64,000 nucleotides of DNA from a virus, in IMG/VR virus record IMGVR_UViG_3300028388_003908, positions 64,001-128,000 of that record, one strand, 5' to 3'. This document shows, piece by piece, positions 4,971 to 64,000 of the stretch. The position numbers and the translations under genes are program-made. Numbering within the stretch: position 1 is the first letter of the stretch; each line of letters starts with the position of its first letter. The notes beneath the pieces were generated by a model. That model had not been told where the DNA came from. It saw only the letters and a list, made by a program, of their open reading frames with translations, and did no database searches.

Positions 4971-5477
4971 ATGTCGAGATACGCAAAAGAAAAATATCCT
5001 TGGGACGAGTGCATTAAGGATCAGCTAGAGCAATATGGAGATCAAGAGGTTGCGGAGAAGGTCTGCGGTAAGATCAAAGCACAATCCCAATCTAAGCCCG
5101 CTTCAAGGATTGCCTCTCGCTATCTTCAATCGTCCCGTATGAAGAGTCTTATGATGGAGATAGACGATTCTGACGAGGCTTGGGACTATCTGCATGATAG
5201 TCCAATAGATCGTAGAACTAAAGCGCTTACTTTTATCCGTGCTCTCAGAAGTAGCGTAAATCTGAACAGAGAGCAGGAGACAGCGGTTGCAATTGCCCTA
5301 GATGCGCTCACATACGTCTCTGGCGGTGCAGAGCCTTCAGACATCATCCCCGACAAAGCCCGTAAGATGATACGTCATCTCGCGTATAGAAATGAGCGCA
5401 AGTTGATGACGAGACTGCCTGCCTTACCTGCTGGCATTGTCTATAAAGACGAGATCCGCAGATTGTTCGGTTCATAA
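4971..5477 (+). CDS. Hypothetical protein, candidate head cargo
   Basis: MSRYA start, small N-terminal Cys module, RIASRYL tag. Confidence 0.65.
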   Translation: MSRYAKEKYPWDECIKDQLEQYGDQEVAEKVCGKIKAQSQSKPASRIASRYLQSSRMKSLMMEIDDSDEAWDYLHDSPIDRRTKALTFIRALRSSVNLNREQETAVAIALDALTYVSGGAEPSDIIPDKARKMIRHLAYRNERKLMTRLPALPAGIVYKDEIRRLFGS

Positions 5478-7329: not shown

Positions 7330-8274
7330 TCAACCTAAATACTTAGAGGCTACTCTGACCGGATTTGATCGGATCTCTTGCATCTCAAAATTACCGTTCT
7401 CGTCTCCGTGACCGTAGCGATAAATCTCAAAAGAGCATACCGCAGGTCCGGAAAATCTCTTCTCAAAACCCGCATAACCACAGCAATCTGGAAACAGATA
7501 AAGATACATCTTACGCTCTATCGGATCAAACACCGTGTGAGAGCTTGTGTAAAGATTAGACCTGCGCGAGACGTTGAAAGGATCATCAGGATTTCTGAGA
7601 CGGTCGCCATAGATACTAGGGGCTAAGTCTTGCACCTTTTGAATCTGTCTTATGCGCTTCTGCGCTCTGCGCTTTCTCTCATGGGAAGAATCTCGATTGA
7701 CACCATACTGATAGCCTGTATCAGGATTCCAAACACCATGGTTTGTGCGAACGTGGGTCTTGTCCGATCTCAGCTTTCTAACGTGAAGATCGCCTTCTTC
7801 CCCCTCTAGTACGCCTTTCAAGGTGCGCTCGATCCCATACGTCTCATAACCATCTGAGAGCAGATTATGCCCCAACACACCCTTGTTAGTGGAAGCCTTC
7901 CTGACCGCTTCATCTAAGGTAGTGCTCGATAGTATCTCAAGCATCAAGTTACCGTCCTTATAGCTATCTCTAGCTAGGATTCGGGACAAATTCTCCATGC
8001 CCTCATCATCGGGGTCGTATTCATCCTTCTTCTTTGAGGGGCGGTCCTTCTCGTCATCTAAGACCATCAGAGCGCTGTTGACGAGAGAGATACCGTACTC
8101 GTTAATACCCTCAATCCAACCCGTATCAACATCCTGAAAATATAGGATCTCAACCCCGTTGACGCGGTCGTGATACACCTTAATGTCGGGGTCATAATTG
8201 CGATCTCTGTTCTTAAACAGGACCACCTTGCCCTCACATGGTGTCGCAGAGATTGTGCAAGCCTTTTTGTCCAT
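7330..8274 (-). CDS. Ntn-hydrolase (C45/choloylglycine-hydrolase-like)
   Basis: C6-T...KNRD, EGINEYGI, RTNH, SSHER; C-terminal RVASKYL tag. Confidence 0.8.
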   Translation of the reverse strand: MDKKACTISATPCEGKVVLFKNRDRNYDPDIKVYHDRVNGVEILYFQDVDTGWIEGINEYGISLVNSALMVLDDEKDRPSKKKDEYDPDDEGMENLSRILARDSYKDGNLMLEILSSTTLDEAVRKASTNKGVLGHNLLSDGYETYGIERTLKGVLEGEEGDLHVRKLRSDKTHVRTNHGVWNPDTGYQYGVNRDSSHERKRRAQKRIRQIQKVQDLAPSIYGDRLRNPDDPFNVSRRSNLYTSSHTVFDPIERKMYLYLFPDCCGYAGFEKRFSGPAVCSFEIYRYGHGDENGNFEMQEIRSNPVRVASKYLG

Positions 8275-8275
8275 A

Positions 8276-9745
8276 TCAACCTGCCATATACGCGGTTCGG
8301 AATCTAGGATTCTGTCTCAAGAGACGATGAATCTGCTGTATAGAGGCTCTTCTAAATATCTTCTTGAAGAGGCTCTTACCGCCTTCCCAAATCTTAGAAC
8401 CTACGTTCTTTAAGAACTTGAATCCTTTGGCAAGGTCCTTAATGACTGCCACACTCACCGGCGCTAGAGACACACCTAATTTTCGGATAATCTGAGCAGT
8501 AGCTTTAGTGTCGGAGATTAAAACGATCAGTAGAATCACACCTAAGATCTTCACGATACCTAGACCTACCGTGGCGAGCGCTGTCTTCATCAAGAGCGCG
8601 ATTGCAGAAGCCTTTAGGATTGAGAGACCGAGCTTAACCACAATCAACTGATGATCAGGAATGCCGGTTGACACATATTGATTGAGATCCTCCCACTTAG
8701 TCATACCCCAATTCGCAAGGGTAATCTCTTTAGGATCAATCCCCAACATATCTCTAATCTCTGACGTACCTGTCCCCGCTACTTTAGCGACCTGAGCAGG
8801 TGTACGGGCAGAGAGCAATTGACCTATTACTTTGAGCGTAGAACTAAAATCACCTGCGCTCTTTAGACGACTCGCAATCAAGCGCTCATACTCGGTCTTA
8901 GGTTTCGTGCCTGCGTCTACAAGCACATGAACCTTTTTTGTAAGACCTTTCGCCTTCAGTACGTTCACGAAAAGATCAATCTCACCTTTGTTGATACCCT
9001 TGATCTTCTCTTTAAAATTGTTGATGATCTCAGAGAGATAACCCATACCTACAGCGTCTTTAACCTCGGGATTATCGAGCTGTTCCATCGCATCGTCCAT
9101 AGCGCCTGCGTATGCGGTCTTTGTATCTCCTATCACTAGAGATAGTACCTTACGCATACGATCAAACTCTCTCATAGAACCTGAGGCGATAATGGCTCTG
9201 CGGATCATCTGATTCTGCTCATGGGCAATCAGTACATTGTGAATAGAGGCTTGTCTGCTTCTCATATAAGAACCTTTCTTTTGTGTGTGTTTCTTTTTCC
9301 ATGCCCTCCACTTAGCGTGTTGAGGGCTAGATTTAAGCGAGGGATCGTGTCCCCAATTTCTAAGACTGATTTCCCATTTAGACATACCGCTGTCTTCTAT
9401 AGGCTCACCCGGCTCATTCCCGAGCATCCTGGAATTAAAGCCGTTCTCTTGCGAGGCGTTGTCGAAATCGTCTGCGCTCCAATCCTCAAAAGGCTTGGAT
9501 TTCCTGCGCTTAATCCGATGGAAAGAGTCGTAACCTGATTGTATACCGCCAGAATCCTTAGCCTCTGATCTGTTGATAGAGGCGAGCAATCTCCGTTCAT
9601 CCTCAGCCCATTTATCAAGCGCATCTTGACTCATGTTAATGAGCTTATGCCACTTGTCATATATCTCACGCTTTTCTTTGTCGGAGCGCGCCTTCGCTGA
9701 TCGGTACATACATCTGCCCCTATCTCTTTTCTTAGAGACAGACAA
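8276..9745 (-). CDS. Multidomain protein: DUF3140-like N-domain plus C-terminal membrane segments (likely start 9712)
   Basis: WHKLINMS...KWEISLRNWGHDP; hydrophobic LGIVKILGVILLIVLI; RSAK, RQAS, KTAY, KSAG, RRAS motifs. Confidence 0.65.
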   Translation of the reverse strand: MSVSKKRDRGRCMYRSAKARSDKEKREIYDKWHKLINMSQDALDKWAEDERRLLASINRSEAKDSGGIQSGYDSFHRIKRRKSKPFEDWSADDFDNASQENGFNSRMLGNEPGEPIEDSGMSKWEISLRNWGHDPSLKSSPQHAKWRAWKKKHTQKKGSYMRSRQASIHNVLIAHEQNQMIRRAIIASGSMREFDRMRKVLSLVIGDTKTAYAGAMDDAMEQLDNPEVKDAVGMGYLSEIINNFKEKIKGINKGEIDLFVNVLKAKGLTKKVHVLVDAGTKPKTEYERLIASRLKSAGDFSSTLKVIGQLLSARTPAQVAKVAGTGTSEIRDMLGIDPKEITLANWGMTKWEDLNQYVSTGIPDHQLIVVKLGLSILKASAIALLMKTALATVGLGIVKILGVILLIVLISDTKATAQIIRKLGVSLAPVSVAVIKDLAKGFKFLKNVGSKIWEGGKSLFKKIFRRASIQQIHRLLRQNPRFRTAYMAG

Positions 9746-17956: not shown

Positions 17957-19276
17957 TTATGACCTCTTTCTTTGACGTAGAAGATAAAGATTCGTCTCAT
18001 GTGCGTTAGCAATAGACATAATAAAATCATCAAGTCCTAGAGACATACCGCCATTATCTTTTATCATATCGTAGACGCGCTTTAAGATGGGCTGTATGCG
18101 CTCCTCTGCGATAAGAGCGCGTGTAATAGGATCGGTAGCGTCATTGTGGATCAAGACCTGAATCGACTGCTGAGCTTGAGGCACCGGCGCAACCGCTACA
18201 GGACCGTATTCCCCTACAATCTTCTCCGCTAAGGTGTCGATCTCGTCCTCTAAGGACTCATAGAGACGCTCCATCAGCTGATGATCCCCATAAGAGGATA
18301 GTCCTTTAACCTGCCAATGTGAGGTCCAATGGGACCAATGCACAGCGCGCAGTACAGCCAAGAGCGTCTGCATGATCTCTAGCTTCACGTCAGCGGAGGC
18401 ATATCGGATTTTATTAGAGGAAGCCTTCTTAGAACGAACCTTAAAGAACTCCTTAGACCCGTTGTGTGAGAGATTTCCTTGTCGATCAATATCGTAGTAA
18501 CCCATGTCATTTACCCCTATATCAAGCGCCTTGCGCGAGCGTCTGTTCTTCTGTCTTACGGTAGAGACACCACCGCCCTCGTATCTTTTAAATCTGTTCA
18601 AGTGCTTACGCCTCTTTTGATTGTAGCGCTTGATCCTTGAGCGATTTTTCAGATAGTAGCGTCTTCTCTTTGTCTTGAGTTTGGTCTTGTTCTTAAGACG
18701 GTTTTTAATGCGCCATTTTTTGTACTCTCTGCGAGCCTGACCCTTCTGCTTACGCTGTCTTTTTGAAGGGATTTTTACCGAGATAAACGCGCTCTTAAAG
18801 AGATCTCCGTTCTCGTCTACGTCATAGATAAAATCCTCGTCTTCAAGATAAGGATCTAATACCTCACCCATGAGCGCGTCTAAAGCTACTCTGCGCTTCA
18901 ATCCTGTAGAGGTAGACTGATCTATATAAGGATGACCATACTGATCTCCGGGTAAACCACTAGAGCGAGGTCGCTGATGTAGAGGCTTACCGTCAGGCTG
19001 ATTTGGTATCGCGTTAGGATTGGGAGCTTTGGAGTAAGACGTAGAAGCACCCGATGAATCCGAAGGTGTATTCGATACAGGAGGTCCCGCCCTCTGCTCT
19101 GTCCTGCCTTCTGGATGACCTGAAGGTAGGGGCAATACCCGATCTCTTTTAGGCTGACCGTCTGCGTAATCCTCTCTACTTGGAGAAGGCGCCGGCGTGT
19201 TCTCTCTAGAATCATTTACCCATGTACGAACGCCACTAAGCTCTTGAACAGGTTGACTATGACCCATAGTGTTCAC
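17957..19276 (-). CDS. Polyprotein-like: Pro-rich, acidic and very basic segments plus C-terminal Dps/ferritin-like domain
   Basis: SHWQVKG...DHQLMERLYE...IDTLAEKI ferroxidase-type pattern; K/R-rich stretch. Confidence 0.75.
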   Translation of the reverse strand: MNTMGHSQPVQELSGVRTWVNDSRENTPAPSPSREDYADGQPKRDRVLPLPSGHPEGRTEQRAGPPVSNTPSDSSGASTSYSKAPNPNAIPNQPDGKPLHQRPRSSGLPGDQYGHPYIDQSTSTGLKRRVALDALMGEVLDPYLEDEDFIYDVDENGDLFKSAFISVKIPSKRQRKQKGQARREYKKWRIKNRLKNKTKLKTKRRRYYLKNRSRIKRYNQKRRKHLNRFKRYEGGGVSTVRQKNRRSRKALDIGVNDMGYYDIDRQGNLSHNGSKEFFKVRSKKASSNKIRYASADVKLEIMQTLLAVLRAVHWSHWTSHWQVKGLSSYGDHQLMERLYESLEDEIDTLAEKIVGEYGPVAVAPVPQAQQSIQVLIHNDATDPITRALIAEERIQPILKRVYDMIKDNGGMSLGLDDFIMSIANAHETNLYLLRQRKRS

Positions 19277-19638
19277 CTGCCTTTGAGATAGGCGAGCGCT
19301 ACCTTCTTGACGGGATCTTGATTGTACTTAGAGGCGATATCCACCTTCTCTCGATCCGTGTGAGGCAAGCGTTGACGATAAAAACCTTCACCCATCTTGA
19401 TGAGCGCATAATTGGTCATATCTAGAGAGCGCTCTAGTCTATCTAAAGACTGAGGAATACCGCTAAGCGCGTCCCCAAACTTCTGATAGATTTCCTCTTT
19501 CAGATCCTCATCGCAATCTTCCAAGGTCTCTCGGATTTGATTGCAAAAGGATCTGATAATATGCGCCTGTACTCTAGAGGAGGAAGCCCCCTCTGCGAGC
19601 ACAGACCAACTAGCTTGACTTGAGGATCTTTTTCTCAT
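19273..19638 (-). CDS. Hypothetical protein, candidate head cargo
   Basis: C-terminal KKVALAYL tag; TAACTCATTTAT upstream (19671-19682). Confidence 0.65.
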   Translation of the reverse strand: MRKRSSSQASWSVLAEGASSSRVQAHIIRSFCNQIRETLEDCDEDLKEEIYQKFGDALSGIPQSLDRLERSLDMTNYALIKMGEGFYRQRLPHTDREKVDIASKYNQDPVKKVALAYLKGR

Positions 19639-31768: not shown

Positions 31769-32962
31769 CTAAAAACCGAAAAATCCAGTGTCAGACCAAA
31801 CAGGAGGACGAGCATCGCCTTTAGACCATATAAAGATCGGCTCGCCTAGCTCAGTACCTTCCTTAATGAAAGGATCGTTAGGTCGCTTCTTGAGTTTATA
31901 ACCTATCACGCCTTCATAAATAGCGCCCAAGCTCTCCATATATTCGATCATAGGCTGACAGACTATCTTATATTCATCTTTGCCCGCTTTAACATCCGAG
32001 ATGTTGATCGCTATGCGTCCACCTTCCTCTAAATGACACCAAGCGTTCTTGAGCGCTCTGAAAAGGAAATCTTTTAGCCAACTCTCGTCCGTTGCATAGC
32101 GCTTCCAACTCTGTGTGCTCTCGTCTGAATAACGCTCTCGATCAAAATAAGGCGGTGACGTGAAAACAAAATCAAAGCGCCTATCCCCTAGATCTACATC
32201 CTCAGCGCACCCGCAGATAAACTCTGTCTGCTTAGGTCTGTTGCAGTAGTCTCTAATCCCCTCGTAAAAGGGGTGTAGAGCGCTGTTAGGGTCGATACCT
32301 ACATAAGACGTTGCCTCTGACGCTAAGAACCCTACAAGACGATCTCCCCACCCCATAGAGAGATCAAGCACCGAGCGAGCTTGAAAAGCCCGATAGACGG
32401 CCTTGACCACGGAAGGTTTGAATTGACTCGCCATGTACGAGTGCAATCTTAATCCGTCATATAAAACCCGATTATTAACCTGACCTCTAATGATACCTTC
32501 TAACGTAAAGAGAGGTCTCAAGATCGGTCTCTTTTCGCCCTTGCGATTCCACTGAGCATACGGAGACATTCCGCCCGAGAAGGCACATTTCATCCTCTGC
32601 TCTTGCGTGAAATGATCAGACACCTTCAACCCATAGTTAGAGCCTCTGATAAGACGATACTCTCCTAGATAGGTGAAATCTTTAATGCTCGGGACGCGCT
32701 TCGCTTCCCATCTCTCCTCTTTAAAGTTCTCCTCCTCGGTTAAGAGACGTTGCCAATCCCTGCGTAGCTGTACCTCGCTATAGTCTCGATATGGGAACTC
32801 TAGATTGTCGATCAGATTTGAGACGTGTCGATGAAGCGCGTCTCTACCGAATCGCTCCAGCATCTCTAACCACACAGATTCTGGAAAATCCAGCTTTCCG
32901 TTTTTGACAAGCTCGTACTCCTCTAAGGATTTCTTGCCGTCTTGTTTTGTCTCAAAAATCAA
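31769..32962 (-). CDS. DNA methyltransferase (TSPPY), paralog 3 (start TTG 32962 inferred)
   Basis: ASQFKP, VLDLSMGWGDRL, YVGIDPN, FTSPPYF. Confidence 0.85.
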   Translation of the reverse strand: MIFETKQDGKKSLEEYELVKNGKLDFPESVWLEMLERFGRDALHRHVSNLIDNLEFPYRDYSEVQLRRDWQRLLTEEENFKEERWEAKRVPSIKDFTYLGEYRLIRGSNYGLKVSDHFTQEQRMKCAFSGGMSPYAQWNRKGEKRPILRPLFTLEGIIRGQVNNRVLYDGLRLHSYMASQFKPSVVKAVYRAFQARSVLDLSMGWGDRLVGFLASEATSYVGIDPNSALHPFYEGIRDYCNRPKQTEFICGCAEDVDLGDRRFDFVFTSPPYFDRERYSDESTQSWKRYATDESWLKDFLFRALKNAWCHLEEGGRIAINISDVKAGKDEYKIVCQPMIEYMESLGAIYEGVIGYKLKKRPNDPFIKEGTELGEPIFIWSKGDARPPVWSDTGFFGF

Positions 32963-34163
32963 AGAAGGTCTCCCTATCCCAAAGGGGCTCGGGCGCGTTG
33001 CCTTTTGCCCATATAAAGACAGGCTCCGCCTGAGTACCATCCTTGAGAAGATTCTTTAATCTACTACCTGCTCTAGGTCTGACCTTTAACGGATAACCTA
33101 TTACGCCTTCGTAGTTCGCCCCTAATCCTTTCATAAACGCTAAGAGATCTTCGCATACAAATACCTTTTTATAAGGTGCGTCACAGATATTAACCGCTAT
33201 ACGACCTCCCTCTTGTAAGCCCCTGTAAATCTTGCCCAAAACATCAAACAAGAAATCTTCCTTCCAAGAAGATAGCGTGGGAAACAGATTGACCGATTGT
33301 AAAGGATCATCCGCATATATCTCTAGGTCAAAGTAGGGCGGTGATGTAAAAACAAAATCGTAGGAGAGCGAGCTAAAATCCACATTACTAGCTGAATCGC
33401 ATATATGCTTTACGGTCTTGCCTGTATTACAAAAATCAGAAATATCTCTGTAAGGCTCAAGTAGACGATGATTAGGGTCAATACCCGTATAAGAGCGCGC
33501 ATTAGATGCGTGAAAGCCTACAAGACGGTCTCCCCAACCCGAGCTAAAATCCAATACGTCCTTTGCGCGGAAAAACTCATAAACTGAACGAGCCAAAGAA
33601 GGACTAAACTGACTGGCGATTATGCCGTGCATTCTCATAGATGATCGCAGGGTGTTTGCACTTAAATTCTTCTCATACATCAAGCCTATAAAAAAATTGA
33701 GAGTCTCTGGTTCAAATCGACCTTTCAATAGACCTTCCCATCTATCAACCACCGAGATCCCTCTTGTCCTTGCTTTAAGTCTCTCACCCATGGTATATTG
33801 ATCGCTAACGATTTTACCTAAAGCATCTCCTACAAGTAGCACACCTTCATCTTGATATGTTAGGGGCATAGTCACAGGTAAGGACCGGTGCGACCAAGCA
33901 CCCTTGTAAGCAAAACTGCTGTACGATTTTAGCAGGTTGAACTCCTTATGAGTCCTTATTGCAGAGTGATTTTTATAAGGGAAAGGTATCTGATGCTCTT
34001 TTACGATACCTCCTATGTGTCGGATAATATCTTTTCTGTCAAAGCGCTCGATAACCTCTGACCATTCGGTCTCATTCATAAAAAATTCTTTACCGTCTGG
34101 ACTCAGCCAATTGTAGTCCGATAACGCTGTTCGCTCGGTCTTATCTTCTAGATCAAAAAACAT
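32952..34163 (-). CDS. DNA methyltransferase (TSPPY), paralog 2 (start 34163 inferred)
   Basis: ASQFSP, VLDFSSGWGDRL, YTGIDPN, FTSPPYF. Confidence 0.85.
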   Translation of the reverse strand: MFFDLEDKTERTALSDYNWLSPDGKEFFMNETEWSEVIERFDRKDIIRHIGGIVKEHQIPFPYKNHSAIRTHKEFNLLKSYSSFAYKGAWSHRSLPVTMPLTYQDEGVLLVGDALGKIVSDQYTMGERLKARTRGISVVDRWEGLLKGRFEPETLNFFIGLMYEKNLSANTLRSSMRMHGIIASQFSPSLARSVYEFFRAKDVLDFSSGWGDRLVGFHASNARSYTGIDPNHRLLEPYRDISDFCNTGKTVKHICDSASNVDFSSLSYDFVFTSPPYFDLEIYADDPLQSVNLFPTLSSWKEDFLFDVLGKIYRGLQEGGRIAVNICDAPYKKVFVCEDLLAFMKGLGANYEGVIGYPLKVRPRAGSRLKNLLKDGTQAEPVFIWAKGNAPEPLWDRETFFDF

Positions 34164-35355
34164 CGAAAAAAGTCTCCTTATTCCAAAGAGGCTCGGGCGC
34201 GTTACCTTTTGACCATATAAAGACAGGCTCACAGAAGATGTAATCCGAATCGTGCTTCCCCTCTGCGTCAGGTCGCTTGTTCATCTTATACCCTAAGACA
34301 CCCTCATAGGTAGCACCTAAACTCTCCATGTGAGAGAACATCGGGGAGCATATATCCACGCCCTTCTTGTCTGCGATATTAACCGCAATACGACCGCCTT
34401 CTTTGAGTGCGCCCCATACGTTGGTTAATGTCGGCTTCAAAAAACCTTCTGTCCAAGCGTCTGAGGACTTGTATCTCTGCCAGCTCTGAGTGCTCTCTGT
34501 CGAGTATTTTTCGATATTAAAGTAAGGCGGTGACGTGAAGATAAAATCTACCTCAACACCGGACAGATCTGTATCTTCGGCAGGGGAACAAAACAGCTTT
34601 ACAGGCTTGCCCGTATCGCAATATCGCGTGATCGCTTGATAGTGAGGGTGCATCTTTGAGTTAGGGTCAATACCCGTATAAGAACGAGCGCTTGATGCGT
34701 GAAAACCTACAAGACGATCACCCCAACCCGAGCTAAAATCCAATACGTCCTTTGCGCGGAAAAACTCGTAGAACGCTTTAGCGACAGCAGGCTTAAATTG
34801 GCTCGCCAAGTAGGTGTGCATCTTGAGAGAATCAAAAAGTGATTTCTGATAAAGCCCCTTCTTACGGACAATCTCGTCCATAAGACCAAAGCTACAGCGC
34901 AGGAAGGTGCTCCCCTTGTCGGGCGCGTTATGCCATTCATCCCAAGGAGAATCTCCGTGTGCGGATCCGCATTTGACGCGCTCGGATTGAGCAAATTGAT
35001 CTGACACCTTCATGCCATGTAGAGAGCCAGGGAAATAGATCTGTCTACCGAGATACTTGTACTCAAAATCCACGACCTGCTTTGGGGCGTGCCAAGGCGC
35101 TTCGATATACTCGGAGTAAAAGCCGTTCCGAACAACATTCCAATCTTTGCGGACAGCTTCTGCGTCAAGGTGACGTAAAGGAAAACGAGGTTGATGTAAT
35201 CTCATCTGCTCCTTGAGATAATCAATAATCTCCTTCTTCTCAAAGCGATCTCTCATCTCATTCCATTGAGCGGGCTTAATCAAAAGCTCACCGTTGTGAA
35301 TGACCTGATATCCTTCAATCGTCTTAGGCTTTGGCTTCTCGTATTCAAAAAACAT
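34153..35355 (-). CDS. DNA methyltransferase (TSPPY), paralog 1
   Basis: ASQFKP, VLDFSSGWGDRL, YTGIDPN, FTSPPYF. Confidence 0.85.
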   Translation of the reverse strand: MFFEYEKPKPKTIEGYQVIHNGELLIKPAQWNEMRDRFEKKEIIDYLKEQMRLHQPRFPLRHLDAEAVRKDWNVVRNGFYSEYIEAPWHAPKQVVDFEYKYLGRQIYFPGSLHGMKVSDQFAQSERVKCGSAHGDSPWDEWHNAPDKGSTFLRCSFGLMDEIVRKKGLYQKSLFDSLKMHTYLASQFKPAVAKAFYEFFRAKDVLDFSSGWGDRLVGFHASSARSYTGIDPNSKMHPHYQAITRYCDTGKPVKLFCSPAEDTDLSGVEVDFIFTSPPYFNIEKYSTESTQSWQRYKSSDAWTEGFLKPTLTNVWGALKEGGRIAVNIADKKGVDICSPMFSHMESLGATYEGVLGYKMNKRPDAEGKHDSDYIFCEPVFIWSKGNAPEPLWNKETFFDVF

Positions 35356-48417: not shown

Positions 48418-48645
48418 TCAAAGAGACCGATAGTACTCAGAGAGCAGTTGCTTGGCCATGTTCAAACCTACATCGAACTTGCGCGAAATCGCCTTCAAGA
48501 TCAGATCATCTGACATACCTATATCCTTCAAAGATCTGATCTCTCTGTTCACCTTAAAAGGTGGTAAAAAGAAACCTCGATCCCTTTCCAAATAAGCGTT
48601 CGCCACTCTTCGGGCGCTCTCTTTAAGCATAGCTAATCTTCTCAT
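48418..48645 (-). CDS. Small hypothetical protein with RRVANAYL tag
   Basis: MRRLA start, ARRVANAYLER. Confidence 0.6.
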   Translation of the reverse strand: MRRLAMLKESARRVANAYLERDRGFFLPPFKVNREIRSLKDIGMSDDLILKAISRKFDVGLNMAKQLLSEYYRSL

Positions 48646-48788: not shown

Positions 48789-50168
48789 TTATTGACCCAA
48801 AAACCTCTCAACCTTCTCAATCACTGACCTCTCGTCTGACCTTATCTCTCCCTCCCAAATCACAAGGCAAGACACACCACAACAAGCATAGTAGTCAACC
48901 ACCTCTGCTTCATGCTCCTCATTACTCTTGCCCGTCTTTGATTCCCCATGCCAGTAGTCCCCAAATACCTCCACCACCTTATACACCCGTAAATCGTTCA
49001 AATTAGCGCCGGCTATATAACTCTCGTACTGACTCTCAGACAAATAAATGAAATCAGGGTTTCTCGCCCTCTCCGCCCCCTTATGCCTTAACCAGTATGA
49101 GTGATCCCCTGCATAAACCAATCTCTCTGGCGTGATCGAATCAAAGTATCTCTCCAACTTGTTAGGGAAATCAAAGGTACTTTGTAAGCTCTGAGGAGGA
49201 AATGGTACCCCGTACTTTTCTAGCCAAGTTGCTTTAATACGGTCCTTGACCTCTTGTGATTTAGATGGATTATCCACCCCATAACGCTCAAGACAAGTCG
49301 CCCTACTCTTATCAAGAAAATCTGCTCTTTTTAAAGGATGTTCAACACCATACCTCTCAAGGTAAGTAGCTTTTGCTTTCTGATCGAACCAAGATACTTG
49401 TGGGGAGTATTTCACCCCATAACGCTCAAGATTCGTCTCTTTTTGCCTTTGTTTAACCACATCACATTTCATAGGGTGTTCAACACCATAGCGCTCTAAA
49501 CAAGCCTCCTTAAATTTCGCTTGAAACTCGTCCGTCTCAACATAGTGTTCAACACCATAACGCTCAAGATTCGTAGCTTTACGCTTATCCATAATCTCAT
49601 CAGACTGATTAGGGTACTCTACCCCATAACGCTCAAGATTCGTCTCTTTAATGCGCTCCTGTACGACACCCGAAGCAAATACGTTCTCTACCCCATAACG
49701 CTCAAGATTCGTAGCCTTACGCCTCTCTTTAATCTCATCACTATGAGCTACGTTCTCTACCCCATAACGCTCAAGATTCGTATCTTTGATCTTCTCTCTT
49801 ATAGAGCTATCTTGAAACACGTTATCCACACCATAACGCTCCTTGACCGTAGCCTTACGCTTCTCGTTTGTCTTAGGTATCGAGGTAAGAGCGCTGTACT
49901 TAGCACGATACTCTTTTGCGTCATAACCATGCACCTTCCTTACATGATCCGCAATACGCTTCTTACGATAACCGCAAATCTTACAAGATAGATAGTCCAC
50001 ACCCTCTACCAAATCAGGCTCATACAAACCCCTTTGAAAATATTCATCGAAGTTGAAATCAGATGAAGGTACGCCAATCTTAGCCTCCCAATCACTACAG
50101 CGTGTAATGTGACCAGGGAGACCTTTAGCGCTCACTTCCTTTTTACAAGCAGGACAATGTGTTGTCAT
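48789..50168 (-). CDS. Free-standing homing-endonuclease-like protein: Zn fingers, 23-aa ERYGV repeats, Vsr-like nuclease
   Basis: CPAC..H..C and CKIC..H...H; about 10 TNLERYGV repeats; NPDF...VEVFGDYWH...LVIWE. Confidence 0.75.
   Translation of the reverse strand: MTTHCPACKKEVSAKGLPGHITRCSDWEAKIGVPSSDFNFDEYFQRGLYEPDLVEGVDYLSCKICGYRKKRIADHVRKVHGYDAKEYRAKYSALTSIPKTNEKRKATVKERYGVDNVFQDSSIREKIKDTNLERYGVENVAHSDEIKERRKATNLERYGVENVFASGVVQERIKETNLERYGVEYPNQSDEIMDKRKATNLERYGVEHYVETDEFQAKFKEACLERYGVEHPMKCDVVKQRQKETNLERYGVKYSPQVSWFDQKAKATYLERYGVEHPLKRADFLDKSRATCLERYGVDNPSKSQEVKDRIKATWLEKYGVPFPPQSLQSTFDFPNKLERYFDSITPERLVYAGDHSYWLRHKGAERARNPDFIYLSESQYESYIAGANLNDLRVYKVVEVFGDYWHGESKTGKSNEEHEAEVVDYYACCGVSCLVIWEGEIRSDERSVIEKVERFLGQ
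49200..49850 (-). repeat. 69-bp coding repeat array
   Basis: ACCCCATAACGCTCAAGATTCGT at 49414, 49621, 49690 and 49759 plus degenerate copies. Confidence 0.9.
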
Positions 50169-59419: not shown

Positions 59420-60298
59420 TTAGCGAGTGACGCTGAGACGAGCAAGACCGCGAGGGTTGTACGCGCCAATACCGAGGTTCTCAAACACAGAGAAGCCGAT
59501 AGTACGAGCCTTAGGGTCGTCCGCAGAGAGGACGGTAAGCTCGGTACGAACGGGGATACGACCAAACATCTCAGGCTCACAGCAGACATACACGGTGCCC
59601 GCAGGAACAAGACGGCTGGTGATAACCTGTGCGCCCCAAAGAGTAGCCTGAAGACCAGTCTTGAGAAGGGCTGCTTGGCTCTCAATGTCGAGAATGTCAC
59701 GACCAAACTTACGGATGTCAGCGTAGTCACGAGCGTTCATGAACACGCGAGCAACGCGAAGGTCATGGCTCTCAACGAGGCTGTATGCGTCAGCAAGCAC
59801 AGAGCCGTTAAGAGGCGCGATCACCTGAATGTCAGAGTTGGTCTGACCAGGTACGCTATCAAAGCCCTGCGTTGCCACAGCGTTAAGGATAGCGAACACG
59901 CGCTCGTCCTCGGCAGCCTGAATCTGGCTACGAGCGAGATCCTGAGCGCGCTCGATGAGATCGAAGCGTCTCTCCTTGATCTGTGTCAAGGGGATCTCAG
60001 GGTTTGATGCGATCTCAAAGAGAGGGAAGATCACACGGCGGGGCTTGGTGATGCTGAGGATGTTCTGTCCCTCTTCACCAACCACAAACGCGGTTACGTC
60101 AGGGTCCTTGTCGTAGATAGGAAGCGCGCCATCGGGCAACTGCTCTACGAGGAAGGTCTTACGACCCACAGAGGTATAGTCTCTGCGGAGGCGTAGGGGT
60201 TGTGTCATTGAGGCAGCCAACTTCGCACGACCCGCAGGGGTCTTGATGTAGTCGGCAATAATCTTGCTCTTTACGCTATTATCAACATTGTTGCTCAT
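59420..60298 (-). CDS. Major capsid protein (HK97 fold)
   Basis: Position after protease-scaffold-decoration genes; EQLPDGALPIYD, IQAAEDERVF, LWGAQVITSRLVPAGTVY, GFSVFENLGIGAYNPRG. Confidence 0.85.
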   Translation of the reverse strand: MSNNVDNSVKSKIIADYIKTPAGRAKLAASMTQPLRLRRDYTSVGRKTFLVEQLPDGALPIYDKDPDVTAFVVGEEGQNILSITKPRRVIFPLFEIASNPEIPLTQIKERRFDLIERAQDLARSQIQAAEDERVFAILNAVATQGFDSVPGQTNSDIQVIAPLNGSVLADAYSLVESHDLRVARVFMNARDYADIRKFGRDILDIESQAALLKTGLQATLWGAQVITSRLVPAGTVYVCCEPEMFGRIPVRTELTVLSADDPKARTIGFSVFENLGIGAYNPRGLARLSVTR

Positions 60299-61088: not shown

Positions 61089-62444
61089 TTAGCCGAAGTA
61101 TCTGCTAACGTCAGGTGCGGTCTCCCACAGCTTGCTGAGATCGTCTGCACCGCTTGAAGCCTCACGGCTGATGTTGCCGAGGGTCTTCACAGCAGGCTGA
61201 CGACTAGCGAGACGAGGACGTGCGTGAGCCTTCTTAGAAGCGGTAGGCTCCTCCTCGCTCATCTGAATCTCCTCAGACTCTTCCTCCTCAGTCTCTTCCT
61301 CCTCAGTCTCTTCCTCCTCAGTCTCTTCCTCAGAAGCCTCAAAGATACGAGCGAGCTTAGGATCAACAGACGCCTCCTCGGTTGCGTCTAGACCCATGGT
61401 GTCCTCTGAAGTCTCCTCCTCTGAAGCCTCCTCCTCTGAAGCCTCCTCCTCTGAAGCGCTATGATAGAAGTTAGCCTTCTTGCTATCCATGTCAGCTAGG
61501 ATAGAAGCGAGTACGCCCTCCTCTGCGCTCTCCTCGTCTGCTTCCTCCTCCTCTGAAAGGATCTCAGCGAGTACGCTGGCGAGACGGTTTATACCACGGC
61601 TCTCGCTACGGGGACGCCAAGAAGCCTGCTTAGGCTGCTCAACGCTCTCCTCCATCAACTCCTCTTCATCGTCAGAGTATCCGGTAGCCTTTGCCACAGC
61701 GTCATCAGCGAGCTTGCGAACCTGTGAAGCAAGACGAGCGTTAGCGAGCTTTAAGGTATCAACCTGCTCTTGAAGCATCTCAGCTAGACGGTCGGTGTGT
61801 CTGCGAGACGCCATGTGATGAGTTCCCATGTAGCCAGACTCATGCTCATCTGCCATGTGATAATCAGACTCATGCTCGTCTGCCATGTGATAATCAGACT
61901 CATGCTCGTCTGCCATGAGATCAAGATCATCAATGATCTCGTCATCATCAGCGTACATATCAGCGTTCACGTTACCAGGGCCGCGATCTGTGACGTGATA
62001 GCCGGTAGCTACCTCCATCTCGTCATGCGCCATGTCCTCCTCAGAAAGACGTGCCAGCTTGTTTTCGATTTGACGATTAGGGAGATCCATGAAGCGAAGC
62101 GCGAGATCCTCAATATCGTTCTGTGAAGCTCTGCGACCAAGCTGAGCCTCTGCGATACGGATGCACTTGGCAGCCTTGCGCTCCATAGCCTGACGAAGAC
62201 CAAAGTCCTCTGCAAGCTCATCGGTCACGGCAGGGTGATCAGGCTCCCAACCGTAAGAAGCAGGAGGAGGACCTGAACGGTAAGGACCCTCATGTACTGC
62301 CTCACCGAAATCTGAATCAATTGCGTAATCGTCAATCTCAGGAAGAGGCTTAGTAGCAGGATGCCCGAAAGCATCGAAACCGAGATTATCATAACCAGGA
62401 AGGGCGCTGTTCGCCCTGCGACCTCTACGGGGGAAACGTGACAT
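61089..62444 (-). CDS. Prohead scaffold-like protein
   Basis: Acidic, coiled-coil, many (K/R)xA motifs; between protease and capsid genes. Confidence 0.65.
   Translation of the reverse strand: MSRFPRRGRRANSALPGYDNLGFDAFGHPATKPLPEIDDYAIDSDFGEAVHEGPYRSGPPPASYGWEPDHPAVTDELAEDFGLRQAMERKAAKCIRIAEAQLGRRASQNDIEDLALRFMDLPNRQIENKLARLSEEDMAHDEMEVATGYHVTDRGPGNVNADMYADDDEIIDDLDLMADEHESDYHMADEHESDYHMADEHESGYMGTHHMASRRHTDRLAEMLQEQVDTLKLANARLASQVRKLADDAVAKATGYSDDEEELMEESVEQPKQASWRPRSESRGINRLASVLAEILSEEEEADEESAEEGVLASILADMDSKKANFYHSASEEEASEEEASEEETSEDTMGLDATEEASVDPKLARIFEASEEETEEEETEEEETEEEESEEIQMSEEEPTASKKAHARPRLASRQPAVKTLGNISREASSGADDLSKLWETAPDVSRYFG
61270..61460 (-). repeat. 15-bp coding repeats (EEETE, SEEEA)
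   Basis: TCTTCCTCCTCAG(TC) x3 and CCTCCTCTGAAG x3. Confidence 0.85.
61833..61918 (-). repeat. 30-bp coding repeat x3
   Basis: MADEHESDYH x2 plus MADEHESGY. Confidence 0.9.
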
Positions 62445-62476: not shown

Positions 62477-63838
62477 TCAAGCCCTTGTGGAGATTAACTT
62501 GGATAATCTTACCAAGCGTGATTTGTCTTGATCAGAGAGTTCCGCTCCATTATACATGGTCGCCCTCTGTAAAAATGCCTCGACAGAAGCATATCTATCA
62601 GCCCTGCCCAAGAGCTTGGCGATACGATAGATTTTCTCAGACATCCGGACGTTGTAATGGTCATTAACAAGACGGATGTTGTCGACCACCTCGGAATCGC
62701 TCTTGGCGATACGGATGGCTGATTCAAGATTGCGGGCATAGACCTTACGGAGCGCTTGACCCTCTTTAATAATGGTGTCGTTCTCGCTCACGGTAGATTC
62801 GCTTATGGCGGGCTTGAGTGCCTCGTCCATAAGACCGCTCTTGATCTCTTGCTCAATCTTCTTACGGATACGATTGATGACCGCGTCTGTAACCGCTGTC
62901 TCTACCTCGTCAATAATTGACTTGGGACCAGCAGGTTCGGCGGGCTTCTCATCTCCATCGTCATCATCAAATCCGAAAGCTAGACGATGAGACGCGCTCT
63001 TTTGAATCCATTTCTCGGGTACATCAGATGATTCTTCTGATGAAGGGATCTCAAGTATGTTACGAGCTACAGCACCCTTAAAGGCTGGCGTCTCTACCCA
63101 AGAAGCCTCGATAAAGGTAACCCCACCTGTCTCTCCTGCGGTGTGATGACCACAAAGCTCTGCGACACGGTGCTTATTGCCTTGCTCGTCATAGAAGGTA
63201 TTACCCTTCTCATACTTGATGTGCTGACACATCTCGGTCTCATCGGCTGCGACATGACCACATTTCGTGCAGATAGTAAAATCGACACTACAGCCCATGC
63301 TCATGGCGTTGGTCTTACCGCTCAGAATATCCTCGACAAGACCCTCATGCTTACGATCTGTCGCCACAAGGATATCCACATAAAGCGATTCCCCTACGTC
63401 ACGGAGAACAGCGTCAATAATGCGCCCCTTTGAAAGCTCCTCAACCTGAACGTGCTCTACAAAGTTATGCGCCCCGACAAAGGTCTTGTAGGACTTTTGA
63501 ATGACTTCTCTTGACCAGCTATCGAGATTATTGTTGATGTACTGATCGGTCTTAGGACTAATACGATAATCCGCATACTTGCGATGTATCTGCTGACCGT
63601 CTTGTGTAAGCGAGCCTGTCTTAGTCCCGGGAGGAGTCACAGCGTCTACAGAGCAGACAATCGTGGCGTGAGTAAGCAGGAAACGGTCGGGCGTGAAGGC
63701 CTCCCCTAGTATATCCTCTGCTTGCTTACGCAAGGATTTATTGACCGTAGCCTTAGAAGCTACGCGCACTTTATCCCAATGATTACCTCTCACGTCAGGC
63801 GTGACAACCCCTGCGCGAGCGTATCTTAGAAATGCCAT
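62477..63838 (-). CDS. Candidate prohead maturation protease with Zn-finger insert (start 63838)
   Basis: FVEH, GRIIDA, MSMGC, CTKCG..C.H, FIEASWVETPAF resemble HK97/herpes-type protease layout; GGAGG RBS. Confidence 0.65.
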   Translation of the reverse strand: MAFLRYARAGVVTPDVRGNHWDKVRVASKATVNKSLRKQAEDILGEAFTPDRFLLTHATIVCSVDAVTPPGTKTGSLTQDGQQIHRKYADYRISPKTDQYINNNLDSWSREVIQKSYKTFVGAHNFVEHVQVEELSKGRIIDAVLRDVGESLYVDILVATDRKHEGLVEDILSGKTNAMSMGCSVDFTICTKCGHVAADETEMCQHIKYEKGNTFYDEQGNKHRVAELCGHHTAGETGGVTFIEASWVETPAFKGAVARNILEIPSSEESSDVPEKWIQKSASHRLAFGFDDDDGDEKPAEPAGPKSIIDEVETAVTDAVINRIRKKIEQEIKSGLMDEALKPAISESTVSENDTIIKEGQALRKVYARNLESAIRIAKSDSEVVDNIRLVNDHYNVRMSEKIYRIAKLLGRADRYASVEAFLQRATMYNGAELSDQDKSRLVRLSKLISTRA

Positions 63839-64000
63839 TAGAAACCTCCTATAATGTCTTCTTGCTTGATTAGGAAAAGACACGAAGGACAGCCCAAAAG
63901 ACGCTCGCTCACGCCATCTCTTCTCTTATAGCAGGTTCTCTTAAGAGGCACTTCGCATTTAGGACAATGAGGGTGAATCTCATCTTTGCGCTGTCGATAC
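63838..64000 (-). CDS. C-terminal part of a zinc-ribbon protein (starts outside window)
   Basis: HCPKC...LGCPSCLFLIK..GGF*; TAATG overlap with protease. Confidence 0.65.
   Translation of the reverse strand, partial: YRQRKDEIHPHCPKCEVPLKRTCYKRRDGVSERLLGCPSCLFLIKQEDIIGGF

What the first reader, a model, noticed from the sequence alone, without database searches (positions are those of the whole stretch)
8257..8274. Ntn hydrolase whose catalytic Cys directly follows a KKA site
The sequence is MDKKA-CTIS. Ntn hydrolases need a free N-terminal nucleophile (established). Cutting after KKA exposes Cys6 exactly, so the enzyme could be a zymogen switched on only inside the maturing head. This is the most precise prediction of the scissile bond for the proposed system.
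Basis: partly seen in the sequence, partly recalled or inferred. Interest (0 to 1): 0.75.

Follow-up and report, generated by a model that had tools for sequence, protein, structure and literature searches.

The report
Protease-gated Ntn hydrolase in a giant phage
A giant phage encodes an amide-cleaving enzyme whose catalytic first residue is capped by five amino acids that end in what looks like the cutting site of the phage's own head-maturation protease, so the enzyme is probably switched on only inside the assembling virus head, although self-cleavage is not excluded.

Summary
ORF 7330-8274 (-) starts MDKKA-C. A confident model (pLDDT 85.7) has the Cys-Ntn hydrolase fold, and Cys6 superposes on the first residue of mature NAAA, IAT, BSH and PVA (Z 15-19.7).

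Among 127 relatives at 50% identity or less, 78 have [KR]-x-[ASG] before the Cys, 45 have [LIVMF]-x-E, and 1 is Met-Cys. Everything further upstream varies, from 0 to 1,557 residues.

- LxE-class phages carry a T4 gp21-type protease (6/8 long contigs). That enzyme is known to cut after Glu, as in T4 IPII/IPIII (MKTYQEFIAE|A).
- KxA-class phages carry this window's protease (9/12 contigs, 4/4 near-complete genomes) and never the T4 type.
- [KR]-x-A is enriched 3-9x in the scaffold-like neighbour of the protease and flanks the protease core.
- It joins a conserved leader to more than 10 unrelated payloads, and it is avoided inside the mature hydrolase.

Caveats: the two classes are a single phylogenetic split. 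No cleavage has been shown. Ntn hydrolases normally self-process.

Verdict: a new variant of capsid-cargo processing in which the cut would unmask an Ntn nucleophile. Probability of trans-cleavage about 0.55. First-stage notes on this same genome had already proposed the KxA motif and the tag.

The parts
7330..8274 (-). Ntn (Cys) amidohydrolase ORF, 314 aa (P0001)
   Evidence: Translation. AF2 model with pLDDT 85.7 and pTM 0.87. Fold matches to IAT, NAAA, BSH/PVA and a C69 dipeptidase. 600 homologs, many carrying PF03417. Weak match to NF040521.
8260..8274 (-). Five-residue N-terminal cap M-D-K-K-A. K3-K4-A5 is the candidate P3-P1 of the cleavage site.
   Evidence: A 5-residue cap is the minimal and commonest propeptide in the KxA class (18 of 79) and is never shorter.
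8257..8259 (-). Codon of Cys6, the predicted N-terminal nucleophile after processing
   Evidence: Invariant in the alignment. It superposes on the first residue of the mature chains of NAAA (C126), IAT (C103), BSH (C2) and PVA (C1).
7333..7365 (-). C-terminal tag N-P-V-R-V-A-S-K-Y-L-G, a candidate head-targeting or protease-recognition peptide. It contains R-V-A|S.
   Evidence: The tag pattern occurs 8 times in the phage proteome against 1.05 expected, with 3 copies at extreme C-termini. In relatives the same tag lies N-terminal, a few residues before the KxA|C site.
8276..9745 (-). Upstream ORF, translationally coupled (TGA-T-ATG). It has a conserved ~140-150 aa leader domain (about 9260-9709), then K-K-G-S / R-Q-A-S, then a membrane-helix payload.
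   Evidence: In relatives P0004-6, P0010, P0012 and P0019 the same leader is fused directly before KKA|C of the hydrolase. The leader is attached to more than 10 unrelated payloads through K-K-[ASG] junctions.
62477..63883 (-). Head maturation protease, the proposed activator
   Evidence: phrog_18299 at E 2.6e-16. Homologs are annotated as head or capsid maturation protease in the Tunturiibacter phage Tunturi_5 and Gordonia phage Pupper records. Present in 9 of 12 KxA-class contigs and in 0 of 8 LxE-class contigs. Conserved R-V-A|S, K-Q-A|E and K-S-A|S bracket the catalytic core.
61089..62444 (-). Acidic scaffold-like protein rich in [KR]-x-A-S motifs, a presumed protease substrate
   Evidence: [KR]xA[SCAT] is enriched 3-9x over shuffles in all 10 orthologs, with conserved islands G-[KR]-x-A-S (8 of 10) and an N-terminal [KR]-x-A (10 of 10).
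59420..60298 (-). Major head protein
   Evidence: phrog_2522 at E 1.2e-50. 81-94% identical in KxA-class phages.

Best explanation
ORF 7330-8274 encodes a zymogen of a virus-specific Cys-Ntn amidohydrolase. Any residue in front of Cys6 blocks the free alpha-amino group that this enzyme class needs, so the MDKKA-capped protein is inactive. That follows from established Ntn chemistry.

I infer that K3-K4-A5 is a minimal recognition site, [KR]-x-[ASG] followed by the cut, for the phage's own head-maturation protease (62477-63883). On this reading the protein is taken into the prohead through its C-terminal NPVRVASKYLG tag. The protease then cuts between Ala5 and Cys6 during maturation. The active enzyme is stored in the head and ejected with the DNA.

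Its target is probably a non-peptide acyl-amide bond of a host molecule, judging from its structural neighbours. The substrate is unknown.

Shown here: the fold, the nucleophile position, conservation of the site, the presence of the protease, and the motif statistics. Inferred: the specificity of the protease, packaging into the head, trans-cleavage, and the target.
For: 1. Ntn fold, with Cys6 at the nucleophile position.
2. Positions -3 and -1 are as conserved as catalytic residues, while the upstream sequence varies from 0 to 1,557 residues. There are two covarying classes, [KR]-x-[ASG] and [LIVMF]-x-E.
3. The LxE class occurs in phages with a T4 gp21-type protease: 6 of 8 long contigs, 2 of 5 fragments of a second subclade, and the cultured phage MA9V-1. 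T4-type proteases cut after Glu (PMC5694885, PMC9026906). T4 IPII and IPIII start MKTYQEFIAE|A. 6 of 34 LxE leaders are CTS-like, against 0.5 expected.
4. The KxA class occurs with this window's protease (9 of 12 contigs, 4 of 4 near-complete genomes) and never with the T4 type.
5. Evidence for [KR]-x-A that does not depend on the hydrolase: 3-9x enrichment and conserved islands in the scaffold-like protein; sites bracketing the protease core; junctions between one conserved leader and more than 10 unrelated, non-Ntn payloads; and 13 ORF starts of the form M-x-[KR]-x-[ASG] against 5.1 expected.
6. Reciprocal avoidance inside the mature domain. [KR]xA is at 0.51 of expectation in the KxA class and 1.19 in the LxE class. 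[LI]xE is at 0.76 in the LxE class and 0.90 in the KxA class.
7. Activation by Met removal alone was available, since methionine aminopeptidase accepts Cys at position 2 (PMC10052503). Yet it is used by only about 1-5% of members, and one of those lies in a replication module.
8. An x-x-A|S/T specificity has precedent in herpesvirus assemblin (PMC4498786).
Against: - No cleavage, packaging or activity has been observed, and no cultured phage of the KxA class exists in the collections searched.
- The structural relatives that carry propeptides (IAT, NAAA, PVA) self-process, as I know from the literature on those enzymes. The nearest curated family is named 'C45 autoproteolytic'.
- The KxA/LxE split is a single clade division, so the agreement between site class and protease class counts as one event.
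- The leader/payload junctions are Lys-rich, which inflates chance matches.
- The avoidance statistics use related sequences, so their p-values are overstated.
- The fold of the protease could not be confirmed, because the model reached only pLDDT 45.
- The hydrolase gene lies about 50 kb from the head module.
Confidence: 0.55

Rival explanations
1. Self-processing. As in other Cys-Ntn hydrolases, the precursor removes its own N-terminal segment by an N-to-S acyl shift at Cys6. The conserved -3 and -1 residues serve this intramolecular reaction, or keep the propeptide seated in the active site. Each of the two subfamilies simply has its own preferred pair.
For: The fold neighbours IAT, NAAA, acid ceramidase and PVA all self-process (own knowledge of those families; structures listed). 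NF040521 'C45 family autoproteolytic' is the only curated sequence match, and it begins at that family's cleavage point. The two site classes coincide with a single split in the hydrolase tree, as a subfamily trait would.
Against: - A self-cleavage requirement does not predict that one class equals the known T4-type protease motif and sits in phages with that protease.
- It does not predict CTS-like leaders.
- It does not predict the same [KR]-x-A motif at non-Ntn junctions, in the scaffold-like protein and around the protease core.
- It does not predict class-specific avoidance of the motif inside the mature domain.
Confidence: 0.3
2. The cap is removed in trans, but not as a head-maturation event. 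The cut is made by a host protease, by another phage protease, or by the same protease in the cytoplasm or after ejection. The hydrolase need not be a virion component.
For: The gene is far from the head module and lies among ORFs of unknown role. Packaging is inferred only from the shared tag.
Against: The site class tracks the type of prohead protease. The tag is shared with the likely portal ORF and the protease itself carries a looser R-V-A-S copy. Relatives are embedded in very large multidomain proteins typical of packaged cargo.
Confidence: 0.1
3. There is no processing signal. MDKKA is just a Lys-rich translation start and the Cys is not used as an N-terminal nucleophile.
For: Lys-rich starts are common; 13 of 151 ORFs here begin M-x-[KR]-x-[ASG].
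Against: The same motif precedes the Cys when it lies up to 1,557 residues inside polyproteins. The Cys is invariant and occupies the nucleophile position of the fold.
Confidence: 0.03

Closest known systems
T4 internal proteins IPI-III and Alt: capsid targeting sequence removed by prohead protease gp21
   Same: A phage-encoded cargo protein carries a short N-terminal propeptide ending in the head protease's motif. The cut happens inside the prohead and the product is ejected into the host (PMC7411985). The LxE-class relatives of this hydrolase carry such a motif and sometimes CTS-like leaders.
   Different: - Here the cut would create the catalytic N-terminus of an enzyme, so it would be zymogen activation and not only release from the scaffold.
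- The window's cap is only 5 residues and is unlikely to target anything by itself.
- The candidate targeting tag is C-terminal.
- The motif is [KR]-x-[ASG], and the protease belongs to a different sequence family (no PF03420 match).
Cys-Ntn hydrolases: isopenicillin-N acyltransferase (peptidase C45, PF03417), penicillin V acylase and bile salt hydrolase (C59), NAAA and acid ceramidase (C89)
   Same: The four-layer fold is shared, with the Cys at the start of the first strand of the mature chain (Z 15-19.7). The precursor needs removal of everything in front of the Cys. An NRD-type motif follows about 17 residues after the Cys.
   Different: Those enzymes self-process or use Met removal. P0001 misses the Pfam threshold and the NCBIfam threshold (25.7 against 85 bits). 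The family is almost purely viral. It shows a strictly conserved P3/P1 pair that matches phage protease motifs.
Herpesvirus assemblin cleavage sites (x-x-A|S/T)
   Same: A capsid maturation protease cuts after Ala and before Ser or Thr at sites in the scaffold and in itself (YLQA-T and VQA-S, PMC4498786). Here the candidate sites are R-V-A|S, K-Q-A|S, K-S-A|S and K-K-A|C.
   Different: Here P3 is basic. The fold of the window's protease could not be verified. No cleavage data exist.
phiKZ/SPN3US head-protein processing and phage polyvalent proteins
   Same: Many head or ejected proteins are cut at a short motif, with redundant sites and self-trimming of the protease (PMC5694885, PMC10052503). 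Relatives of the hydrolase sit in multidomain proteins of up to 2,792 aa, alongside ART-PolyVal, ChaC/GGCT, PAP2 and 2H domains.
   Different: In those phages the motif is (S/A/G)-x-E. The polyvalent-protein survey (PMC5512222) does not mention an Ntn domain. P0001 itself is a single-domain protein.

Membership tests
Ntn-hydrolase superfamily (Cys nucleophile) | Four-layer alpha-beta-beta-alpha fold | tested here: met
   AF2 model with pLDDT 85.7. All top Foldseek hits are Cys- or Ser-Ntn hydrolases. VIA Z 15-19.7 over 200-260 aligned residues.
Ntn-hydrolase superfamily (Cys nucleophile) | The nucleophile is the first residue of the mature chain | tested here: met
   Model residue 6 aligns with the first residue of mature NAAA beta chain (126), IAT (103), BSH (2), PVA (1) and penicillin G acylase beta chain (1). 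The Cys is invariant in 50 of 50 aligned sequences.
Ntn-hydrolase superfamily (Cys nucleophile) | Helper residues (Arg/Asp shortly after the Cys, oxyanion Asn, distal Arg) | tested here: inconclusive
   R23, D24, N178 and R200 are invariant and lie in the expected order. Residue-by-residue structural equivalence was not available from the tools.
Ntn-hydrolase superfamily (Cys nucleophile) | Autoproteolytic maturation | not testable with these tools
   Needs expression of wild-type and C6A precursors. The comparative data favour trans-cleavage but do not exclude self-cleavage.
Peptidase C45 / AAT (PF03417, NF040521) | Score over the curated sequence-model threshold | tested here: not met
   No Pfam hit even at E 10. 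NF040521 scores 25.7 bits against a cut-off of 85. Some homologs do carry PF03417. P0001 is therefore a distant relative, not a member by threshold.
Capsid-targeted cargo processed by the prohead protease (T4 IP/Alt type) | The phage encodes a prohead protease | tested here: met
   62477-63883 matches phrog_18299 at E 2.6e-16. Homologs are annotated as maturation protease.
Capsid-targeted cargo processed by the prohead protease (T4 IP/Alt type) | The propeptide ends in that protease's cleavage motif | tested here: inconclusive
   For LxE-class relatives the motif equals the known T4-type site. For P0001 the [KR]-x-[ASG] motif is supported only indirectly as this protease's site.
Capsid-targeted cargo processed by the prohead protease (T4 IP/Alt type) | A targeting sequence shared by several cargo proteins | tested here: inconclusive
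   The tag [RK][VI]Axx[YFW][LMIYR] occurs 8 times against 1.05 expected, at termini. Binding to the prohead is untested.
Capsid-targeted cargo processed by the prohead protease (T4 IP/Alt type) | Presence in virions and ejection into the host | not testable with these tools
   There is no cultured KxA-class phage. For MA9V-1 only SDS-PAGE has been published (PMC10537231).
Phage polyvalent proteins | Several effector domains in one polypeptide | tested here: not met
   P0001 is a single domain of 314 aa. Relatives of 800-2,792 aa do fit this feature.

The most novel reading that the evidence does not exclude
Phages of at least two lineages use their capsid-maturation protease as the activating enzyme of a packaged Ntn-hydrolase effector. 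The cleavage site has been re-written to match each lineage's protease, (L/I)-x-E for the T4 type and [KR]-x-[ASG] for a so far uncharacterised protease of uncultured giant phages. These would be the first Ntn hydrolases activated in trans.

The reading would also define the cleavage code, the tag and the leader domain of a new cargo-delivery system carrying dozens of unrelated payloads.
Probability: 0.5. Interest if true: 0.8.

Novelty: new variant of a known kind. Interest (0 to 1): 0.68.

Why it matters
Ntn hydrolases are the textbook case of self-activating enzymes. A large viral family, with more than 600 representatives at 50% identity or less, whose nucleophile is unmasked by another protease would be an exception to that rule. 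It would also be a neat timing device, keeping the enzyme silent in the producing cell and armed in the particle.

The comparison also yields a testable cleavage motif, [KR]-x-[ASG], for a head protease family that has no biochemical data. That motif would allow prediction of mature ends for many cargo proteins of uncultured giant phages. The LxE-class member in the cultured Chryseobacterium phage MA9V-1 gives an immediate experimental entry point.

Tried and rejected
- Pfam, PHROG and PDB sequence searches of P0001 gave nothing. The DNA search against cultured phages also gave nothing.
- I counted independent switches between site classes. FastTree suggested 2, but IQ-TREE makes all LxE members one clade with support 92. 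I therefore dropped any claim of repeated co-evolution.
- I looked for the hydrolase's leader on neighbouring genes in LxE-class loci, within 3 kb on each side. No convincing match was found.
- The capsid N-arm keeps K-L-A-A-S, but the protein is 81-94% identical throughout, so this is uninformative.
- The structure of the protease reached only pLDDT 45 with 6 sequences, so no fold search was run and the assemblin-like fold remains unverified.
- Published virion mass spectrometry for MA9V-1 does not exist.
- A lipoprotein lipobox reading of K-K-A-C was rejected, because the leader has 5 residues and no hydrophobic stretch.
- Read-through or fusion with the upstream ORF was rejected, because the frames differ (TGA-T-ATG).
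- Complex prediction was not used. An enzyme with its substrate is a poor case for it.

Full report
**The observation.** On the minus strand, 8274..8257 encodes M-D-K-K-A-C, the start of a 314-aa ORF (7330..8274). The ATG is the first possible start of the ORF. The two closest homologs (81% and 80% identity) start at the same point with MNKKAC and MSINKKAC. The stop codon of the upstream ORF lies one base before this ATG in another frame, which suggests translational coupling and rules out fusion.

**What the protein is.** P0001 has no Pfam, PHROG or PDB sequence match. It does have 600 homologs, many of which carry PF03417, the acyl-CoA:6-APA acyltransferase / peptidase C45 family.

An AlphaFold model built on 50 homologs is confident, with pLDDT 85.7 and pTM 0.87. 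Every leading structural match is an Ntn hydrolase: isopenicillin-N acyltransferase, NAAA, bile salt hydrolases, penicillin V acylase and a C69 dipeptidase. In the second aligner, model residue 6 aligns with the first residue of the mature chain in enzyme after enzyme, at Z 15-19.7. Examples are NAAA 126, IAT 103, BSH 2 and PVA 1.

Cys6, R23, D24, N178 and R200 are invariant. By curated thresholds, however, the protein is not a member of C45. It has no Pfam hit, and NF040521 scores 25.7 bits against a cut-off of 85. The family is almost purely viral.

| Sample | [KR]-x-[ASG] | [LIV(MF)]-x-E | Met-Cys | Other |
|---|---|---|---|---|
| 118 homologs | 86 | 25 | 6 | 1 (parsing slip; by eye K-Q-A) |
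| 127 representatives at 50% identity or less | 78 | 45 | 1 | 3 |

- The two positions covary perfectly: K/R goes with A/S/G, and L/I/V with E.
- Positions -3 and -1 carry 2.7-4.3 bits, like the catalytic core, while -4 to -9 are near background.
- The segment in front of the Cys ranges from 4-5 residues to 1,557 residues inside proteins of up to 2,792 aa.
- In the KxA class the commonest and shortest cap is exactly M-x-[KR]-x-[ASG], in 18 of 79 sequences. This is the window's form.

**Does the site class follow the phage's protease?** The window encodes a major head protein (59420-60298, phrog_2522) and a head maturation protease (62477-63883, phrog_18299).

| Hydrolase site class | Records tested | T4 gp21-type protease (PF03420) | Window-type protease |
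|---|---|---|---|
| KxA | 12 long viral contigs | 0 | 9, including all 4 near-complete genomes |
| LxE | 8 long viral contigs | 6 | 0 |

A second LxE subclade also lies beside PF03420 proteases in 2 of 5 small fragments. The cultured Chryseobacterium phage MA9V-1 has a hydrolase starting M-T-S-A-N-N-N-E-F-L-N-E|C together with a T4-type protease (PMC10537231).

T4-type proteases cut after Glu following a short motif, and they remove the roughly 10-residue capsid targeting sequence of ejected head proteins (PMC7411985, PMC5694885, PMC9026906). I read T4 IPII and IPIII from the T4 record, and both begin MKTYQEFIAE|A. Six of 34 LxE-class leaders share the aromatic-x-x-F-hydrophobic pattern of that sequence, against 0.5 expected. 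None of the 39 KxA leaders does.

**An important limit.** On the hydrolase tree the two classes are a single split. FastTree needs 2 changes, and IQ-TREE makes LxE one clade with support 92. The agreement between site class and protease type is therefore one evolutionary event and not a statistical correlation. Its weight comes from the fact that the LxE motif equals a specificity known independently.

**Independent evidence that [KR]-x-A is this protease's motif.**

1. The acidic, fast-evolving ORF between protease and capsid gene (61089-62444) is enriched 3-9 fold in [KR]-x-A-[SCAT] in all 10 orthologs (p at most 0.03). The sites form conserved islands in otherwise diverging sequence: G-[KR]-x-A-S in 8 of 10 and an N-terminal [KR]-x-A in 10 of 10.
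2. In the protease itself, conserved R-V-A|S and K-(Q/K)-A|E precede the catalytic core, and K-S-A|S follows it just before a variable acidic linker. This is where T4/phiKZ/SPN3US proteases trim themselves.
3. The upstream ORF (8276-9745) begins with a ~150-aa leader that is 55-91% identical across about 100 proteins. It is joined to more than 10 unrelated payloads, including Ntn hydrolase, ChaC/GGCT, JmjC/cupin, SWIM, GNAT and NIF phosphatase. The junction is K-K-[ASG], often followed by I-Q-R-V-A-S-x-Y-L. Ntn self-cleavage cannot explain the motif at these junctions, although the Lys-rich context raises the chance rate.
4. In six relatives that leader is fused directly before KKA|C of the hydrolase.
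5. Inside the mature hydrolase domain each class avoids its own motif. [KR]-x-A is at 0.51 of expectation in the KxA class and 1.19 in the LxE class. [LI]-x-E is at 0.76 in the LxE class and 0.90 in the KxA class. The p-values are overstated because the sequences are related.
6. Thirteen of 151 ORFs of this phage begin M-x-[KR]-x-[ASG], against 5.1 expected.
7. Cutting after Ala and before Ser/Thr is the known habit of herpesvirus assemblin, with sites YLQA-T and VQA-S (PMC4498786).

**Targeting.** A 5-residue cap can hardly target a protein to the head. P0001 ends in N-P-V-R-V-A-S-K-Y-L-G. The pattern [RK][VI]Axx[YFW][LMIYR] occurs 8 times in the phage proteome against 1.05 expected. Three copies lie at extreme C-termini and three near N-termini, including the 712-aa ORF just upstream of the protease, which I take to be the portal.

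In relatives the same tag sits 3-8 residues before the KxA|C site, or at the C-terminus, and only in the KxA class. The tag itself contains R-V-A|S, so it could be a docking peptide, a high-affinity protease site, or both.

**The Met-Cys members.** These are rare, at 6 of 118 and 1 of 127, and are mostly one small clade. The one I examined lies in a replication module with PolA, primase, DnaB, PhoH and a 2H phosphoesterase. Methionine aminopeptidase accepts Cys at position 2 (PMC10052503). The family could therefore activate without any cap, yet it almost never does. That argues for selection to delay activation.

**Weighing the explanations.** The default for this superfamily is self-processing, and nothing here shows a cut. 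Several observations are hard to derive from a self-cleavage requirement:

- one class matches a known protease motif;
- the other class's motif appears at non-Ntn junctions, in the scaffold-like protein and around the protease core;
- each class avoids its own motif inside the mature domain.

My probabilities are:

| Explanation | Probability |
|---|---|
| Trans-cleavage by the head protease | 0.55 |
| Self-processing | 0.30 |
| Trans-cleavage outside head maturation | 0.10 |
| No processing signal | about 0.03 |

The substrate is unknown. The closest folds act on acyl-amide bonds (NAAA, ceramidase, bile salt and penicillin acylases). Fusion partners in relatives include ChaC/GGCT, PAP2 and 2H domains. 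These are multi-effector arrays, so they say little about the target.

**Novelty.** Processing of capsid-targeted cargo by the prohead protease is known from T4, phiKZ and SPN3US. New here would be that the cut creates the catalytic N-terminus of an Ntn hydrolase, and that a second protease family uses a [KR]-x-[ASG] code. No paper in the searched library links Ntn hydrolases with prohead proteases. The polyvalent-protein survey does not mention an Ntn domain. First-stage notes on this same genome had already proposed the KxA motif and the tag. I tested those ideas here and did not count them as evidence.

Noticed in passing
window 8276-9745 (-), leader about 9260-9709: A ~150-aa, highly conserved leader domain (weak DUF3140 match) is fused in about 100 metagenomic proteins to more than 10 unrelated payloads. 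These include Ntn hydrolase, ChaC/GGCT, JmjC/cupin, SWIM, GNAT and NIF phosphatase. In a few proteins (P0282-P0284) the domain sits at the C-terminus instead. It looks like a modular cargo-delivery domain.
   Followed up: partly
G000 genome; window 4971-5477, 19273-19638, 48418-48645, 63838-65976 and 15 kb before the window: The tag [RK][VI]Axx[YFW][LMIYR] occurs 8 times in the proteome against about 1 expected, mostly at protein termini. One copy is at residue 10 of the 712-aa ORF next to the protease, which is probably the portal.
   Followed up: partly
window 62477-63883 (-): The head protease carries a conserved Cys/His-rich insert (C-T-K-C-G-H ... M-C-x-H ... C-G-H), like a zinc ribbon, inside the catalytic region. 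It also has a long C-terminal helical domain after an acidic linker. The AF2 model was poor (pLDDT 45).
   Followed up: partly
loci L001-L031 and L093-L101: In the KxA-class giant phages the capsid protein is 81-94% identical to the window's, but the hydrolase only 35-41%. Such fast evolution is typical of proteins that meet the host.
   Followed up: no
L104:129-1461; protein P0080: A 2H/LigT-type phosphoesterase is the neighbour of a Met-Cys hydrolase and is fused N-terminally to another family member (P0080). This recurrent association is unexplained.
   Followed up: no
window 31769-35355 (-): Three tandem, overlapping paralogous ORFs (423, 426 and 400 aa) all match phrog_12517 and DNA methyltransferase PHROGs in their C-terminal halves.
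   Followed up: no
window 48789-50168 (-): A 459-aa ORF with repeated homing-endonuclease PHROG matches (phrog_12131, phrog_3339).
   Followed up: no
whole genome G000: Thirteen of 151 ORFs start M-x-[KR]-x-[ASG], against 5.1 expected. They include three that begin M-R-R-T-A-S-E. Short caps ending in the candidate protease motif may therefore be common in this phage.
   Followed up: partly
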